From the sequence record OZ556245.1: a stretch of DNA of 64,000 nt, one strand, 5' to 3'. The notes beneath the pieces are model-generated. The model was not told where the DNA came from and ran no database searches. It saw nothing but the letters and a program-made list of their open reading frames with translations. Position numbers and translations under genes: made by a program. Origin of the DNA: a phage. Shown one piece after another: positions 15,109 to 63,813 of the stretch; position 1 is the first letter of the stretch, and every line of letters starts with the position of its first letter.

Positions 15109-15711
15109 TTATAGATTAAATCCTTCAAAATCAAGAGTATAGATAGTGTATGTTGAATACTTTTTATACTCGTATCTATCCGCAATTCTAAATACACTTC
15201 CAGCTGGTATCATTACTTCTTGTTCATCTGAAACTAATTCCATATTACGATAGCGATGGCTATCTGGAAACTTAAAACTTGGACTATATTCTTTACAGCG
15301 TAGAGCTTTTATAGCATACTCCTGGAAATTAAACACCATAGGAGCTTTGAATTCAAAAATAACTTGTGTATTGTATTCTAATCCAGAAGCAAAATGTAGA
15401 GCTATATTTTTATCATATGAAGCTGATACTACTTTATCAAATGTAATAATATCAATTCCTTGATTTAACACCTGTTTAGTCTCAACTGGAACACCTCTCC
15501 AAAGAGGTTTATCGTTTGGTTCCAAACGAGATTTGATTATTTCATTTAACCAAGAATGATCGTCTGGTTTATTAGTAATACAATGAATTAAAAGTTCAAT
15601 TTCAGATAAATTAAATCCTTCGGAAAGTAATTCTTCACGAATAGAAGCACGCACCGATGCATCCATTGATTTGATTTTAAAATCTTTTAATTGCATTGCT
15701 GAATATTTCAT
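15109..15711 (-). CDS. modA: ADP-ribosyltransferase ModA
   Basis: 200 aa as T4 ModA; R-S-E ART motif elements (WRGVP, SAS, EQEVMIP). Confidence 0.8.
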   Translation of the reverse strand: MKYSAMQLKDFKIKSMDASVRASIREELLSEGFNLSEIELLIHCITNKPDDHSWLNEIIKSRLEPNDKPLWRGVPVETKQVLNQGIDIITFDKVVSASYDKNIALHFASGLEYNTQVIFEFKAPMVFNFQEYAIKALRCKEYSPSFKFPDSHRYRNMELVSDEQEVMIPAGSVFRIADRYEYKKYSTYTIYTLDFEGFNL

Positions 15712-16343
15712 TCAACTACCTCAATATCATACACTTTAAATGTTCCAAATGAATCATGTAATTTTTCTTTTGAAATAGAAGTTATTTTATACTTTCCAAT
15801 TGGAATCATCCATTCTTGTTCACGTACAATCATCATTAAGTTATCAGTACGTTCTGAATCTAATCCATCAGTATCTTCATATGTATACTTAAACTCAGTA
15901 TTAGGAGAAGAAAGTATAATATCGCTGATATGGTCAGAATAATTAAAAGCTTTATCAGTTTTTAAGCGAAATATTATTTCAGTGGAATATTCAACATAAG
16001 AAAAATCACAAGCTGTGTGCAAACTAGTAGTAAATGAATCTACTCTGTTCGTTGAAAACACTTCTCCGATTTGTAAATCTTTAATGAGTTCTTTTGTCGA
16101 TTTTGATATACCACGATATAGCTGATAAGGCGATTTAGTTAAATGCTTTTTAACGATTTTATTCAACTGCTGATGAAGAGCTTCATTCTTTTTGGCTTCC
16201 ATACATTGCCAAAGAATTGACTGTTCAAAGTCAGTAAATTTTTCACAGACCTTTTTATACATATCATATTGAAAATCGACACTTTCAGCTTTTATAGATA
16301 ACTGTTCAACATCTGCGAGATTAATAATCATGATAGCCTCCAT
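15708..16343 (-). CDS. modB: ADP-ribosyltransferase ModB
   Basis: 211 aa; ART motif elements (YRGIS, STS, EQEWMIP); adjacent paralog of modA. Confidence 0.75.
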   Translation of the reverse strand: MEAIMIINLADVEQLSIKAESVDFQYDMYKKVCEKFTDFEQSILWQCMEAKKNEALHQQLNKIVKKHLTKSPYQLYRGISKSTKELIKDLQIGEVFSTNRVDSFTTSLHTACDFSYVEYSTEIIFRLKTDKAFNYSDHISDIILSSPNTEFKYTYEDTDGLDSERTDNLMMIVREQEWMIPIGKYKITSISKEKLHDSFGTFKVYDIEVVE

Positions 16344-21198: not shown

Positions 21199-21555
21199 TT
21201 AACCTCTATTCATAAAAGCATTAAAAATTTGGTCATCAATCGATGGAACAGCAACCTTTTCGGCATCATTTAGCAAATCATTAATTTCATCAGATAGCAT
21301 AACGCATGTACCTTTATTTCCTGTAATTGTTACTGCACAATTACGAACGTTTTCTTTATCAAATTTTAGGTTAATATTTTCGTAGTGAAAATCCTTTAAT
21401 GCCGAATATATTTTTAAAATGAAATTGTCTTTTACTGCAATAAACCCAACTTCACTATTAAAACGTGGTTCATGGAAACTGTAATAAACCTTTTCATCTA
21501 TAAAATCGTATGAAATTTTTTCCATTTTTAAATATGAAAATTCAGAACTGTACAT
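21199..21555 (-). CDS. hypothetical protein (118 aa), T4 61.1/61.2 position
   Basis: ORF track; synteny. Confidence 0.5.
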   Translation of the reverse strand: MYSSEFSYLKMEKISYDFIDEKVYYSFHEPRFNSEVGFIAVKDNFILKIYSALKDFHYENINLKFDKENVRNCAVTITGNKGTCVMLSDEINDLLNDAEKVAVPSIDDQIFNAFMNRG

Positions 21556-21567
21556 ACTAACCTCTAA

Positions 21568-21861
21568 TTACTCACCTACCACTTCAGCGATGATATTTTT
21601 ATTATTAAAGTTTTTATCGCAATACAGAACATAATTATACTGCATTACACCGCCAGACTTAAGCTGTTTTTGCACTTCAGCTTTCATTTCAGGACGATCA
21701 CGCTCAACGATATTCATAATATCTGCTTCAATTTGAGTTTCAACTTCAGTCTGATCTGCAGTCATAGACCATTCACACAAATCTTTGTCATAACCCGCCA
21801 TAGCAGGCTGAGCAGCGCAAGAAGATAAAGCAAAAATTGTAGCAAAGATAAATTTTTTCAT
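21568..21861 (-). CDS. sp: periplasmic protein Spackle-like (superinfection exclusion)
   Basis: 97 aa with cleavable signal peptide, at T4 sp (61.3) position. Confidence 0.6.
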   Translation of the reverse strand: MKKFIFATIFALSSCAAQPAMAGYDKDLCEWSMTADQTEVETQIEADIMNIVERDRPEMKAEVQKQLKSGGVMQYNYVLYCDKNFNNKNIIAEVVGE

Positions 21862-59832: not shown

Positions 59833-60414
59833 CTAACCAAGCTTTTTAGTTAATTCATTCCAATGTTTTCTACACAAAGAAACATAAATTTCATCACCAA
59901 TACAGATTTGATTACCTTCTTTAACTGGCGTTCCATCTTCCATTAATCGAGCTGTCATAATAGCTTTTTTACCACAATGACAAACTGCTTTTAGTTCAAT
60001 AAGTTTATCTGCAATCGCCAAAAGTTCTTTAGAACCTTCAAATAATTTTCCAGCGAAATCAGTCCTTAGTCCATAAGCCATAACAGGAACATTATATGTA
60101 TCAACAATTCGGCTTAATTGATGCACCTGTTCAGTTTTTAAAAACTGGGCTTCATCTACAAATACACAATGAATATCCTTTTGTGCTTCAGCCCATTTAT
60201 AGAACTCAAAAATATCCATATCATCCGTAATAATATTCGCTTCCTGCTTAATTCCAATGCGAGAAACGACTTCACAGACAGAATCACGAGTATCAATAGC
60301 AGGCTTAAGAACTAATACACCCATTCCGCGTTCTTTATAATTATGCGCAGCAGTCAAAAGAGAAGCAGATTTTCCAGCATTCATTGCTGCGTAAGTAAAA
60401 ATTAAACTCGCCAT
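59833..60414 (-). CDS. tk: thymidine kinase
   Basis: 193 aa; P-loop AAMNAGKSASLL; C-terminal Cys cluster. Confidence 0.9.
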   Translation of the reverse strand: MASLIFTYAAMNAGKSASLLTAAHNYKERGMGVLVLKPAIDTRDSVCEVVSRIGIKQEANIITDDMDIFEFYKWAEAQKDIHCVFVDEAQFLKTEQVHQLSRIVDTYNVPVMAYGLRTDFAGKLFEGSKELLAIADKLIELKAVCHCGKKAIMTARLMEDGTPVKEGNQICIGDEIYVSLCRKHWNELTKKLG

Positions 60415-60604: not shown

Positions 60605-60786
60605 AAGGAATTTATATAATCAATAAGTTCTTGTTCTTTATCGTCGAAATCTTTACACAGTTCTTCGTATTCATCGGTATTAAAAGGACCGCATTCATCA
60701 CAAACTTTTTCTAATTCATTGTTTTTATCCATAACTTCATGAATAAGAGAAAACAGCCTGTCTTTCTGTTCTTTGCTTAGGCTCAT
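60601..60786 (-). CDS. small helical protein, S/T-x-EQ family (61 aa)
   Basis: N-terminus MSLSKEQKDRLFSLIHEV. Confidence 0.45.
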   Translation of the reverse strand: MSLSKEQKDRLFSLIHEVMDKNNELEKVCDECGPFNTDEYEELCKDFDDKEQELIDYINSL

Positions 60787-60955
60787 AGTATGTCAATCCC
60801 CAAAAGTTTTAAAATGACTCGTTTCTGATTCATAACCGCTACGATTGAATGACCGTTGGGGTCTTTTTGACCTGATCCAATTATAAATCCTTTTTGCGCA
60901 GAAAGTTCAATCAAAACATCAAGTTCACGTAATAATTGATATTTTAAATCATCAT

Positions 60956-61183
60956 TCATTTTGGTTTACCTTCTTTAACGAAATCGGGATAAGGATAAAA
61001 TCCTGAATAAAATCCTTCACCTTTATGATTGATGCATCCTTTATTAGAACAGTAGCACCAATAATCGAAATCACAAGCCATTTCATCATTACATAAAGCA
61101 AAAACAACCGGCCATTCACACTTTTCGCAGTGGGCATTTTTAAGAATACTAGTTTGGCTCATAACCATGTAACCTTTAAGCAA
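60956..61183 (-). CDS. Cys-rich small protein (75 aa)
   Basis: eight Cys in CEKCEW...CNDEMACDFDYWCYCSNKGC. Confidence 0.45.
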   Translation of the reverse strand: MLKGYMVMSQTSILKNAHCEKCEWPVVFALCNDEMACDFDYWCYCSNKGCINHKGEGFYSGFYPYPDFVKEGKPK

Positions 61184-61371
61184 TATTCTTCTACGTGCTG
61201 TTTACGACCTTTCTTATCAATAAAGGTATATTCAACGAATGTTCCAACATAGTCTTTATTTACATCATGTGGACTATTAATTGGGCATTTAGTACGGCAA
61301 ATGCGTTCCCATTGACGAATAATTTCCACTTTGTTTTTAGGATCAAATGGATGCGGGTAATGTACTTTCAT
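61159..61371 (-). CDS. hypothetical protein (70 aa)
   Basis: ORF track. Confidence 0.45.
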   Translation of the reverse strand: MKVHYPHPFDPKNKVEIIRQWERICRTKCPINSPHDVNKDYVGTFVEYTFIDKKGRKQHVEEYCLKVTWL

Positions 61372-61822
61372 AATCCACCACTATTAAATCAATATCAGGA
61401 GTAAACATGTCGATTAATTTAGAAACCTTATCCCAATCGCCGCCAGCAATACCGCAACCGATGCGTGGAATGTAAATTACTGGTTTAAACAAAAGGGTTT
61501 CTGCCTGTAGATTTAATTCTATCATGCAGTTTACTAAAGCACCATAATCAAGATTAGGACCCGGTTCGTATTGCGTATACAAATTATAGCACATACTAAA
61601 TCCTGTAGGATTATGTTTAAAAACAATAGACATATCGCCTAATTTATCACGAGAACCGTACTCGGTAGTGGTTTTATCTATTTCTAAAATTTTGGGATAG
61701 GCTCTTGCTAATTGACCTGCTACGCCAGAGCCCATTGTGTGGAAGCAATTACACCCGTGCGCAATAATATTACCTTGAAGAAATAGGGCGACAATATCGC
61801 CCTTGATATATTTTACAATCAT
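61343..61822 (-). CDS. macro-domain protein (ADP-ribose binding/processing fold)
   Basis: KGDIVAL...HGCNCFHTMGSGVAGQL...IPRIGCGIAGGDW matches macro-domain GDI, Gly-rich loop and second Gly loop. Confidence 0.6.
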   Translation of the reverse strand: MIVKYIKGDIVALFLQGNIIAHGCNCFHTMGSGVAGQLARAYPKILEIDKTTTEYGSRDKLGDMSIVFKHNPTGFSMCYNLYTQYEPGPNLDYGALVNCMIELNLQAETLLFKPVIYIPRIGCGIAGGDWDKVSKLIDMFTPDIDLIVVDYESTLPASI

Positions 61823-62166
61823 CTAGTACTCAATCCTCGATTATAAGAATCTACTAAACGGTCAACCATTGAATGACAAGCGGCTTTATCTTTCTCCTCC
61901 GCAACTGAACATTCTAAGGTATTCCACTTTTTAGCATATCGTTTTAACAATGTATCATTTTTGTATCTGCTTGATTTATCTCTTTCTCCGCCTTTATATG
62001 CATATATTAATTTCTGCGCAAATTCAGCTTGGCATGCTTTATTTTTCCCACAATAATCCGCGGCAGTACGGTTTACATACTCTCTAATTTCAGTATATGA
62101 TGTATCTGCTAACGCAGAAGCAGAAAATGAAATTAATCCTATACATAAAACCAAAATTTTAGTCAT
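61819..62166 (-). CDS. secreted small protein (115 aa)
   Basis: N-terminal signal peptide MTKILVLCIGLISFSASALA. Confidence 0.5.
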   Translation of the reverse strand: MTKILVLCIGLISFSASALADTSYTEIREYVNRTAADYCGKNKACQAEFAQKLIYAYKGGERDKSSRYKNDTLLKRYAKKWNTLECSVAEEKDKAACHSMVDRLVDSYNRGLSTR

Positions 62167-62704
62167 TTACTATTTCCAAAAGTTTATTATTTTTAAGGTA
62201 ATTAGCCTTTTCTAGGACTTCAGAAGCATATTTAGAACCTGCTTTAACATTCCATCCCGAATTATAAGAGGATATCGCCTTTCTTATATCGCCCTTATGT
62301 ATATTTAACCAATAAGAAAGTTCAATGTACGCCCAGGAAGCTGAATTGGACCGTTTATTCAACATTCTTTTTATTTCAGCATCGGTCATATTATAACCAA
62401 GTTCCTTAACTCTTGCTCGCATAGTAGGCAAATAATTTTGGAACATTCCATAGGCATGATGCTTTGGTTTAGATTTTAAATTAACTCCGCCAGAGCTTTC
62501 TTGCCATAAAATGGCTGCCATTATATGACCTAATCCACTCTTGTGGATATTTTTGTGCGTTTTATATTTTCCATCCTTAGAAAACTGTTCCCCGAATTGA
62601 TACGCGTAACGCATGTTATCGAGTTGGACATTACTGAAAGTATGCTCGGAGCTATGTGCCATCATTGAAATGGCCAATAGACCAGCGAGTAGTGCTTTTC
62701 TCAT
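62159..62704 (-). CDS. periplasmic lytic transglycosylase-like protein (SLT domain)
   Basis: signal peptide; catalytic-type motif ILWQESSGG and AYGMFQ. Confidence 0.6.
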   Translation of the reverse strand: MRKALLAGLLAISMMAHSSEHTFSNVQLDNMRYAYQFGEQFSKDGKYKTHKNIHKSGLGHIMAAILWQESSGGVNLKSKPKHHAYGMFQNYLPTMRARVKELGYNMTDAEIKRMLNKRSNSASWAYIELSYWLNIHKGDIRKAISSYNSGWNVKAGSKYASEVLEKANYLKNNKLLEIVND

Positions 62705-62711
62705 GCTTACC

Positions 62712-63173
62712 TCATTGAGTTTTAATTACTGCTTTAGAAGCCTTTCCTGGTAAACGACGACTGTTAATAATTGCCATCCTGCATTGAAGCGACGGGTCTT
62801 TGAACTTCGCATTAGGTTTACAAACTGTAAATCCAAGCCAAAGATTTCCATCTGTAATTTCTAAACGTCCAGGACGGTATTCAACCCCATCAATAAAATC
62901 CTCATCAATGTCAGGACGCGGAGGCATACTCAGGAATTCATTAACTTCTAAAACATGGTCTTTTATTTTGTGGAATAATTCAAAAACATATGTCTCATCA
63001 ATCTCCCGTTGAATTGCACGATCAAGAAGATGCTGAGAATATTTTAGATGAAACGATGAGACCCCTGCTGCTTTTGATGCCTCACGAATCTCATTGTTAA
63101 TTTGACGAAACTCCGACTCAAAGTGACGACGAAGCTTATTTCGACGGATAAAAACTTCTGTGTTGATAGTCAT
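62712..63173 (-). CDS. regB: RegB endoribonuclease
   Basis: 153 aa as T4 RegB; own early promoter immediately upstream. Confidence 0.75.
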   Translation of the reverse strand: MTINTEVFIRRNKLRRHFESEFRQINNEIREASKAAGVSSFHLKYSQHLLDRAIQREIDETYVFELFHKIKDHVLEVNEFLSMPPRPDIDEDFIDGVEYRPGRLEITDGNLWLGFTVCKPNAKFKDPSLQCRMAIINSRRLPGKASKAVIKTQ

Positions 63174-63201
63174 GTTATTCTCCTCTTAACTGATAGAAAA
63201 A

Positions 63202-63231
63202 TTATACCACAGTCAAGAGGAAAAGTAAACA
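63202..63231 (-). promoter_or_regulatory. early promoter upstream of regB
   Basis: GTTTAC - 17 nt - TGGTATAAT. Confidence 0.55.
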
Positions 63232-63232
63232 G

Positions 63233-63553
63233 TTATTCTTTAAATTTAATCAATTTATTCATAGACTTTGAAACTTCTGCACGGACCTCATGTAGGTTTT
63301 TAAGCTGTTCAAGACGTTGCTCATAGTAAGCAATTTCATCTTCTTCAAGACAGTCCTGTGAATCTTCTTTAAGATAACGTGCATAGTCCTGGAAAGCTTT
63401 ACGGACTACTTCTTGGAAGTCATCAAGACTTTGAATTTTCTTAGGAGCAACAGATACACGACGAGGGGCAGTATAATACTCATAACCAAACCCTGCGCTT
63501 AATTGAGCCATTAATATTTTTCCTCTGGTTGGAATACCGCGCGACAAGCCCAC
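63233..63553 (-). CDS. hypothetical protein (106 aa)
   Basis: ORF track. Confidence 0.45.
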
Positions 63554-63813
63554 ATACTAGCTTCTTTGAGTTTCGTTTTAGCAATAGTTAGCTGATCAAG
63601 GCTTTCAGCATAATTCTTTGCGAATTCGTAGTCTTCGCAATTATCTAGTGCTTCCCAGAATTCATCGTATAAAGCGTCAAAGATAAGTCCTAAACGAACT
63701 TCAGCGTCTTTAATAGCATTCACTTTATCGATTTTCTCTTCAGTGTGCGGCTTATAACCTTTAATATCTTCAATCATATTTGACTTCCTCACCCGTTCCC
63801 AAATCATATTCAA
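63511..63813 (-). CDS. hypothetical helical protein (about 100 aa)
   Basis: ORF track; start may be internal. Confidence 0.45.

What the first reader, a model, noticed from the sequence alone, without database searches (positions are those of the whole stretch)
61343..61822. Macro-domain protein in the tk-vs interval
A 159-aa ORF has macro-domain hallmarks (GDI, HGCNC...GSGVAG loop, GCGIAGG loop). Macro domains bind or hydrolyse ADP-ribose derivatives. This phage also encodes ADP-ribosyltransferases (ModA/ModB), and host defences that use ADP-ribosylation or NAD-derived signals are known, so this is a plausible counter-defence or regulatory enzyme. I do not know of a characterised function for it in T-even phages.
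Basis: partly seen in the sequence, partly recalled or inferred. Interest (0 to 1): 0.6.

Follow-up and report, generated by a model that had tools for sequence, protein, structure and literature searches.

The report
T-even phage anti-DarT2 macrodomain (Tk.4/AdfM)

Summary
It is a bona fide macro domain:
- Pfam Macro scores 33.8 bits against a cut-off of 22.
- The AlphaFold model has pLDDT 95.

The gene sits between tk.3 and vs, so it is the positional ortholog of T4 tk.4. GenBank has long annotated tk.4 as "phosphatase, A1pp motif". A November 2025 preprint (HIDEN-SEQ) found tk.4 as the only T4 gene needed on a DarTG2 host. A clean knockout sensitised T4, and the authors renamed the gene adfM.

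Three points are not in that literature:
- The family has an invariant Gln (Q84) where DarG, TARG1 and PhiKZ AdfM have the catalytic Lys. This matches Streptomyces SCO6735, whose Gln85 is essential for thymidine-ADP-ribose removal.
- This phage's allele is only 57% identical to T4 Tk.4, while the flanking genes are 98-100% identical. It is a sharply bounded allelic cassette.
- No biochemistry exists for any T-even Tk.4.

Interest is low to moderate.

The parts
61343..61822 (-). tk.4/adfM ortholog: single-domain 159-aa macro-domain protein
61715..61759 (-). Codons for H22-G36 (HGCNCFHTMGSGVAG), ADP-ribose-binding loop 1. H22 aligns with SCO6735 H24. N25 aligns with SCO6735 N27 and PhiKZ AdfM N23.
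   Evidence: H22, G23, N25, C26, G33 and A35 are invariant in 57 homologs. Residue equivalences come from the MSA. Mutant data are in PMC9411070 and PMC13309987.
61571..61585 (-). Codons for N80-L-Y-T-Q84. Q84 occupies the position of the catalytic Lys of TARG1 (K84) and DarG (K80), and equals SCO6735 Gln85.
   Evidence: N80, Y82 and Q84 are invariant. HMM alignment to TARG1. MSA with SCO6735, BT1257, DarG and PhiKZ AdfM. SCO6735 sequence and numbering derived.
61433..61468 (-). Codons for P119-W130 (PRIGCGIAGGDW), diphosphate-binding loop 2. A126 sits where TARG1 has catalytic D125.
   Evidence: P119, G122, G124 and W130 are invariant. The loop is nearly identical to SCO6735 PRIGCGLAGGTW and BT1257 PRIGCGLAGGKW.
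61819..61822 (-). ATGA overlap of the vs stop codon and the tk.4 start codon, suggesting translational coupling within one transcript
   Evidence: Read directly from the sequence. The coupling is an inference.
63201..63229 (-). Sigma-70-like promoter (TTTACT-17-TATAAT with TG) upstream of regB. It is the likely early promoter for regB-vs.1-vs-tk.4. Assignment is inferred.
   Evidence: Best promoter-like site in 60700-63400, with no convincing terminator between it and tk.4. This is a consensus match only.
61340..61785 (.). Divergent allelic cassette. Nucleotide identity to T4 falls from 97-100% to 40-80% and returns to 92% or more at the tk.3 side.
   Evidence: 40-nt sliding identity. Gene-by-gene identities.

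Best explanation
The gene is this phage's version of T4 tk.4/adfM, a stand-alone antitoxin-like macrodomain. It is probably made early, from the regB-vs operon. The host DarT2 toxin attaches ADP-ribose to thymidines in single-stranded phage DNA (TNTC motifs). The proposed job of this enzyme is to remove that ADP-ribose, so replication can proceed and DarTG2 abortive defence fails. Chemically it should work like Streptomyces SCO6735 rather than like DarG. The two glycine loops and N25/H22 hold the ADP-ribose. The invariant Gln84 replaces the catalytic lysine and positions the substrate or a water molecule. What is shown here: the macro fold, the class, the residue equivalences and the synteny with tk.4. 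What is shown in the literature for relatives: T4 tk.4 is required against DarTG2 (genetics); SCO6735 and PhiKZ AdfM hydrolyse thymidine-ADP-ribose on DNA (biochemistry). What is inferred: that this 57%-identical allele has the same activity, its timing of expression, and the Gln-based mechanism.
For: Fold and class:
- Pfam Macro scores above the gathering cut-off.
- The AF2 model has pLDDT 95.
- The family profile against PDB gives BT1257 5e-20, TARG1 1e-16, SCO6735 7e-16 and DarG 1.6e-11.

Orthology:
- The gene occupies the same slot between tk.3 and vs as T4 tk.4, at 58% identity with E=8e-71.

Function of the ortholog:
- tk.4 was the single HIDEN-SEQ hit on a DarTG2 host, and the knockout was sensitised.
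- T4 lacking adfA and adfN stays DarTG2-resistant, which had predicted a further factor.

Chemistry:
- Q84 aligns with SCO6735 Gln85, whose Q85A/E mutants lose all thymidine-ADP-ribose DNA hydrolase activity.
- N25 aligns with PhiKZ AdfM N23, whose mutation lowers DNA de-ADP-ribosylation.
- H22, N25 and Q84 are invariant in 57 homologs.
- The window allele has the family-consensus loop GCGIAGG, whereas the experimentally validated T4 allele is the outlier (GAGIGKG).
- Its acidic pI (5.0) equals that of the active PhiKZ AdfM (5.05).
Against: - No T-even Tk.4 has been assayed biochemically. The T4 evidence is genetic and comes from a preprint.
- The allele here is only 57-58% identical to the tested one.
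- The SCO6735 lysines proposed to bind DNA (K34, K89) are S32 and G88 here.
- The closest solved relatives also include a protein-Glu ADP-ribose hydrolase (TARG1) and an ADP-ribose-1''-phosphate phosphatase (Poa1p). The fold therefore does not fix the substrate.
- Early expression rests only on a consensus promoter match.
Confidence: 0.75

Rival explanations
1. It is a metabolic ADP-ribose-1''-phosphate phosphatase or O-acetyl-ADP-ribose deacetylase, as in the traditional 'A1pp phosphatase' annotation. On this view it clears small ADP-ribose metabolites rather than acting on DNA.
For: GenBank and PHROG call it a phosphatase. Yeast Poa1p is among the best sequence and structure matches. H22 aligns with Poa1p H23, a residue the depositors chose to mutate.
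Against: The DarTG2 phenotype of T4 tk.4 is not explained by metabolite clearance. From established knowledge, the T4 Pnkp/Rnl1 RNA-repair route does not generate ADP-ribose-1''-phosphate. Many macro domains show this activity in vitro without physiological meaning.
Confidence: 0.05
2. It is an eraser for the phage's own ADP-ribosyltransferases (Alt, ModA, ModB), resetting or limiting protein ADP-ribosylation or RNAylation during infection.
For: ModA and ModB are encoded in the same window. TARG1-class enzymes can remove protein-linked ADP-ribose, and SCO6735 acts on auto-modified PARP1.
Against: From established knowledge, Alt, ModA and ModB modify arginine, a linkage this macro class is not known to cleave. 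tk.4 was dispensable without DarTG2 and scored only with DarTG2. The gene is not linked to the mod genes, which lie about 45 kb away.
Confidence: 0.05
3. It is a broader nucleic-acid ADP-ribose eraser. Its relevant targets would include ADP-ribosylated uracil in RNA or products of other ADP-ribosylating defences, with DarT2 only one of them.
For: TARG1, DarG and SCO6735 all reverse uracil-ADP-ribose on ssRNA (PMC13036486). The family occurs in 2768 phage records across many genera and hosts. Orphan bacterial homologs have no DarT neighbour.
Against: No phage phenotype other than DarTG2 has been reported. CmdT adenine-ADP-ribosylation of mRNA is described as irreversible, and CmdTAC provides robust defence against the T-even family (abstract seen).
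Confidence: 0.1
4. It neutralises DarT2 mainly by binding and inhibiting the toxin, acting as an antitoxin mimic, rather than by hydrolysing the DNA adduct.
For: Catalytically dead SCO6735 Q85A inhibited DarT in vitro more strongly than DarG or TARG1 mutants did. The deep allelic divergence on a conserved backbone would fit co-evolution with a protein partner.
Against: The protein lacks the C-terminal DarT-binding domain of DarG. It is 159 aa and scores 28.9 bits against the NCBIfam DarG cut-off of 250. All residues invariant in the family lie in the ADP-ribose site.
Confidence: 0.05

Closest known systems
T4 Tk.4 = AdfM (anti-DarT factor Macrodomain), bioRxiv 10.1101/2025.11.20.689424
   Same: Same syntenic slot between tk.3 and vs. 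Single macro domain of 155 versus 159 aa. Identical loop 1 (HGCNCFHTMGSGVAGQL) and NLYTQ motif. Same ATGA-type overlap with vs.
   Different: Only 57-58% amino-acid identity, although the flanking genes are 98-100% identical. Loop 2 is GCGIAGG here and GAGIGKG in T4. There are four extra C-terminal residues. This allele itself has not been tested.
Streptomyces coelicolor SCO6735 (PDB 5e3b) and Bacteroides BT1257 (2fg1/2afc)
   Same: ALC1-like macro class. Gln at the catalytic-Lys position. His and Asn of loop 1 are conserved. Loop 2 (PRIGCGxAGGxW) is nearly identical. Orphan genes with no DarT partner. SCO6735 hydrolyses thymidine-ADP-ribose on DNA.
   Different: About 25-29% identity. SCO6735 K34 and K89, its proposed DNA-binding residues, are S32 and G88 here. 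The bacterial proteins are basic (pI 8.4-9.5) while this one is acidic (pI 5.0). The bacterial genes sit in cellular, DNA-damage-related contexts rather than in an anti-defence role.
DarG (DarG2) antitoxin macrodomain (PDB 5m3i, 5m31, 7omu)
   Different: The catalytic Lys80 is replaced by Gln. There is no C-terminal DarT-binding domain and no adjacent darT. The NCBIfam DarG model gives 28.9 bits against a cut-off of 250.
PhiKZ gp104 AdfM (Cell Rep 2026, PMC13309987)
   Same: A phage-encoded stand-alone macrodomain that counters DarTG2. The conserved Asn (N23, equivalent to N25 here) is kept. Both proteins are acidic.
   Different: A different lineage. gp104 is a close DarG homolog (E=9e-25 to Mtb DarG) with the FPTK catalytic lysine. 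BLASTP against the window protein shows only marginal similarity (E=0.001 over 33 residues). gp104 is imported into the phage nucleus.
Human TARG1/OARD1 (PDB 4j5r)
   Same: Best Foldseek match (E=2e-10, TM 0.74-0.83). It also reverses thymidine-ADP-ribose on DNA.
   Different: Neither residue of the TARG1 K84/D125 catalytic dyad is kept; the window protein has Q84 and A126.

Membership tests
Macro domain (Pfam PF01661) | Profile score above the curated gathering cut-off | tested here: met
   33.8 bits against 22, E=3.7e-8, covering model positions 2-117 of 118.
Macro domain (Pfam PF01661) | Alpha/beta/alpha macro fold with the two Gly-rich ADP-ribose-binding loops | tested here: met
ALC1-like class (TARG1 / DarG / Poa1p / SCO6735) | Closer in sequence and structure to this class than to the MacroD, PARG or viral Mac1 classes | tested here: met
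T4 Tk.4/AdfM orthologs | Same genomic position (tk.3 - tk.4 - vs) and full-length homology | tested here: met
   Collinear with T4 60712-63565. 58% identity over 155 aa, E=8e-71. Flanking genes are 90-100% identical.
T4 Tk.4/AdfM orthologs | Protects the phage from DarTG2 | not testable with these tools
   Shown only for T4 tk.4, by Tn-seq and a clean knockout.
SCO6735-type (Gln) thymidine-ADP-ribose DNA hydrolases | Gln at the position of the DarG K80 / TARG1 K84 catalytic lysine | tested here: met
   Q84 aligns with SCO6735 Q85 and the BT1257 Gln, and is invariant in 57 homologs.
SCO6735-type (Gln) thymidine-ADP-ribose DNA hydrolases | Loop-1 His24 and Asn27 equivalents | tested here: met
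   H22 and N25 are invariant.
SCO6735-type (Gln) thymidine-ADP-ribose DNA hydrolases | Basic residues K34 and K89 lining the DNA channel | tested here: not met
   The aligned residues are S32 and G88. Overall pI is 5.0 against 9.5 for SCO6735.
SCO6735-type (Gln) thymidine-ADP-ribose DNA hydrolases | Hydrolysis of thymidine-linked ADP-ribose on ssDNA | not testable with these tools
   Needs an enzyme assay. Shown for SCO6735.
DarG antitoxin (NCBIfam NF048014) | Score above the equivalog cut-off; macro domain plus C-terminal DarT-binding domain | tested here: not met
   28.9 bits against a cut-off of 250. Only model positions 2-142 of 338 are matched. The protein is 159 aa.
DarG antitoxin (NCBIfam NF048014) | Catalytic lysine (Taq/Mtb K80) | tested here: not met
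   Gln84 sits at that column.
DarG antitoxin (NCBIfam NF048014) | Encoded next to a darT toxin gene | tested here: not met
   The neighbours are vs and tk.3.
TARG1 terminal ADP-ribose glycohydrolase | Lys84/Asp125 catalytic dyad | tested here: not met
   Q84 and A126 sit at the aligned columns.
Poa1p ADP-ribose-1''-phosphate phosphatase | Phosphatase activity on ADP-ribose-1''-phosphate, with its active-site residues | tested here: inconclusive

The most novel reading that the evidence does not exclude
The tk.4 locus is a hot spot of allelic replacement in T-even phages. At least two deeply divergent classes exist, about 57% identical, set in 98-100% identical flanks. The alleles might differ in specificity: for different DarT2 variants, for thymidine-DNA versus uracil-RNA ADP-ribose, or in toxin binding. 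On this reading the window allele, an untested Gln-type enzyme, is functionally distinct from T4 AdfM rather than a simple ortholog.
Probability: 0.15. Interest if true: 0.55.

Novelty: already known. Interest (0 to 1): 0.3.

Why it matters
DarTG systems are common in enterobacteria and in pathogens such as M. tuberculosis and P. aeruginosa. Whether a therapeutic T-even phage carries a working anti-DarT2 enzyme affects its host range. For this window the value is mainly correct annotation. The gene should be called adfM/tk.4-like anti-DarT2 macrodomain, not "phosphatase" or "hypothetical protein".

Two residual points are worth an experiment:
- T-even AdfM proteins are Gln-type (SCO6735-like) rather than Lys-type (DarG-like) enzymes. 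They would be a compact and very abundant model for the unresolved lysine-independent mechanism.
- The locus is exchanged as a cassette among otherwise near-identical phages, as would be expected of a gene under arms-race pressure.

Tried and rejected
- Literature search for "adfM" was swamped by the journal abbreviation Adv Funct Mater (88,125 papers). It still surfaced the PhiKZ AdfM paper.
- The CmdTAC paper mentions macrodomains only in its reference list and says nothing about Tk.4.
- The Aravind-group survey of viral NAD/ADP-ribose systems does not name tk.4 in its main text.
I reran it without that row.
- A half-length query meant to force a direct SCO6735 alignment aligned only loop 2. 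I recovered the SCO6735 sequence through a BT1257 query instead and confirmed its numbering (H24, N27, K34, Q85, K89) by counting.
- I considered net charge as an argument against DNA binding. I rejected it because the biochemically active PhiKZ AdfM is equally acidic.
- I looked for a DarT partner next to a bacterial homolog (Pelagimonas P0093) and found none.
- The terminator-like hairpin inside the 5' end of the ORF was not followed up.

Full report
**Observation**

The window has a 159-aa ATG ORF at 61343..61822 on the minus strand.

Thymidine kinase lies downstream in the direction of transcription (59833-60414). The 115-aa vs ORF (61819-62166), vs.1 and regB lie upstream. The tk.4 ATG overlaps the vs stop codon as ATGA. 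The 3' end overlaps the start of the 70-aa tk.3 homolog by 29 nt.

The best matching GenBank record is Shigella phage sb2, at 99.6% nucleotide and 100% protein identity. The window is therefore a Tequatrovirus.

**Is it a macro domain?**

Yes, on four lines of evidence:
- Pfam Macro PF01661 matches almost end to end, at 33.8 bits against a gathering score of 22.
- The single sequence hits solved macro domains: BT1257 1e-10, Poa1p 2e-9, SCO6735 8e-8, Mtb DarG 2.5e-5.
- A profile of 57 homologs raises these hits: BT1257 5e-20, TARG1 1e-16, SCO6735 7e-16, Poa1p 4e-14, DarG 1.6e-11.
- An AlphaFold2 model built on 56 sequences has mean pLDDT 95 and pTM 0.89.

**What gene is it?**

The region is collinear with T4 60712-63565. 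In the T4 reference record the ORF between tk.3 and vs is tk.4 (NP_049723, 155 aa), annotated "phosphatase; contains A1pp phosphatase motif". The window protein is 58% identical to it over the full length, with E=8e-71.

A full-text search for tk.4 found the HIDEN-SEQ preprint (bioRxiv 10.1101/2025.11.20.689424, 20 Nov 2025). It reports the following:
- In a T4 transposon library grown on a DarTG2-expressing host, tk.4 was the single significant hit.
- A clean knockout sensitised T4 to DarTG2.
- The authors named the gene adfM (anti-DarT factor Macrodomain) and proposed that it removes ADP-ribose from DNA. No enzyme assay was reported.

This fits an earlier result. T4 and T2 lacking adfN, and T4 lacking both adfA and adfN, remain DarTG2-resistant, which led those authors to predict a further factor (PMC11825919).

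Independently, a DarG-like macrodomain of phage PhiKZ (gp104) was also named AdfM. It removes DarT2-made ADP-ribose from a DNA oligonucleotide, and an N23A mutation weakens it (PMC13309987).

**Mechanism**

I aligned the window protein with T4 Tk.4, BT1257, SCO6735, TARG1, two DarG macrodomains and PhiKZ AdfM, anchored by 55 family members. The known sequences were recovered from the HMMER alignments.

| Window residue | Conservation in 57 homologs | Equivalent in other proteins |
|---|---|---|
| Q84 | invariant | catalytic Lys of TARG1 (K84), DarG (K80) and PhiKZ AdfM; Gln in SCO6735 (Gln85) and BT1257 |
| A126 | at least 90% | TARG1 D125 |
| H22 | invariant | SCO6735 H24 |
| N25 | invariant | SCO6735 N27, PhiKZ AdfM N23 |

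For SCO6735, Q85A and Q85E abolish hydrolysis of thymidine-linked ADP-ribose on DNA. Its authors propose a water-initiated, lysine-independent mechanism (PMC9411070). Loop 2 is almost the same in all three proteins: PRIGCGIAGGDW here, PRIGCGLAGGTW in SCO6735 and PRIGCGLAGGKW in BT1257.

The T-even AdfM family is therefore a Gln-type, SCO6735-like enzyme. It is not a close DarG derivative. PhiKZ AdfM, by contrast, is a Lys-type close DarG homolog (E=9e-25) with only marginal pairwise similarity to the window protein. The two "AdfM" proteins represent separate acquisitions within the same macro class.

There are differences from SCO6735. Its proposed DNA-channel lysines K34 and K89 are S32 and G88 here, and the phage protein is acidic (pI 5.0 against 9.5). 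PhiKZ AdfM is equally acidic and is active on DNA, so the charge is not a strong objection.

The protein is not a DarG family member. The NCBIfam DarG model gives 28.9 bits against a cut-off of 250, there is no C-terminal DarT-binding domain, and there is no adjacent darT.

**Expression**

The only strong sigma-70-like site on the coding strand in 60700-63400 is TTTACT-17-TATAAT with a TG extension, at 63229-63201, just upstream of regB. No convincing terminator separates it from tk.4. Together with the overlapping stop and start codons, this suggests co-transcription and coupled translation of regB-vs.1-vs-tk.4 from an early promoter. That would suit an enzyme that must act while the DNA replicates. 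This step is inference only.

**Rivals**

- Metabolic phosphatase. The old "A1pp phosphatase" label rests on family membership alone and does not explain the DarTG2 phenotype.
- Eraser for Alt, ModA and ModB marks. This is unlikely because those enzymes modify arginine, and because tk.4 scored only on the DarTG2 host.
- Broader nucleic-acid eraser. This is plausible as an addition, since TARG1, DarG and SCO6735 also reverse uracil-ADP-ribose on RNA (PMC13036486). The family is also very widespread, in 2768 phage records covering T-even, Felix-O1-like, rV5-like, Ackermannviridae-sized and Pseudomonas phages. A chromosomal homolog in Pelagimonas is an orphan with no DarT neighbour.
- Inhibition by binding. 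This cannot be excluded, because catalytically dead SCO6735 inhibits DarT in vitro.

**An allelic cassette**

Gene-by-gene identity to T4:

| Gene | Amino-acid identity to T4 |
|---|---|
| tk | 99% |
| tk.3 | 90% |
| tk.4 | 56.6% |
| vs | 98% |
| vs.1 | 100% |
| regB | 99% |

A 40-nt sliding comparison shows 97-100% identity through vs and the first roughly 40 nt of tk.4. Identity drops to 40-80% from about 61785 down to about 61340. It returns to 92% or more in tk.3.

Across GenBank phages the distribution is discontinuous:
- Measured against the window allele: 319 records at 90% or more, one at 80-90% and 96 at 60-80%.
- Measured against the T4 allele: 224 records at 90% or more and 159 at 80-90%.

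The locus is thus exchanged as a cassette among otherwise near-identical phages. All classes keep H22, N25 and Q84. The window allele carries the family-consensus loop 2, whereas the experimentally validated T4 allele is the outlier (GAGIGKG). This favours the window allele being an active enzyme. Whether the alleles differ in specificity is unknown.

**Verdict**

The function is already described for the T4 ortholog, by genetics in a preprint, and for related enzymes, by biochemistry. The finding is therefore not new.

Three things remain open: direct biochemistry of any T-even Tk.4, the lysine-independent mechanism, and the meaning of the allelic dimorphism. I rate the anti-DarT2 thymidine-ADP-ribose DNA hydrolase explanation at 0.75, and interest at 0.3.

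Noticed in passing
window 61340-61785: The body of tk.4 is a sharply bounded divergent cassette: 40-80% nt and 56.6% aa identity to T4. The flanking genes vs, vs.1, regB and tk are 98-100% identical. GenBank phages fall into discrete allele classes: 319 records at 90% or more to this allele, and 224 at 90% or more plus 159 at 80-90% to the T4 allele.
   Followed up: partly
window 60788-61157: A roughly 370-bp insertion relative to T4 between tk.2 and tk.3. It carries two small minus-strand ORFs: 60783-60959 (58 aa, phrog_3452, unknown function) and 60956-61183 (75 aa, Cys-rich, Pfam PF23895 Phage_zn_bind, E=4e-29).
   Followed up: no
window 61785-61803: A perfect G+C-rich inverted repeat (AGGGCGA-TATTG-TCGCCCT) inside the first 40 nt of the tk.4 coding region. 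It lies exactly where identity to T4 drops from 100%. It was flagged as terminator-like on both strands. It could be a chance consequence of the KGDIVAL codons, an mRNA structure, or a recombination junction.
   Followed up: no
window 21202-21618: The only match to T4 gp61.2 (AdfA, the other T-even anti-DarT factor) is 32% identical, over the C-terminal two thirds. A second anti-DarT locus thus seems strongly diverged from T4 in this phage.
   Followed up: no
window 63233-63813: The homologs of vs.3 and vs.4 are noticeably more diverged from T4 (84-86% aa) than the neighbouring regB and vs.1 (99-100%). From my own knowledge, not tested here, T4 Vs.4 is the anti-CBASS sponge Acb2. This early region therefore seems to hold several fast-evolving anti-defence genes.
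   Followed up: no
window 61819-62166 (vs): The same HIDEN-SEQ preprint reports that vs, the gene immediately upstream and translationally overlapped with tk.4, is the most strongly depleted T4 gene in minimal medium. The vs protein has no Pfam match.
   Followed up: no
window 15112-16331: ModA (97%) and ModB (95%) orthologs are present on the minus strand, about 45 kb from the macro-domain gene and not linked to it.
   Followed up: partly
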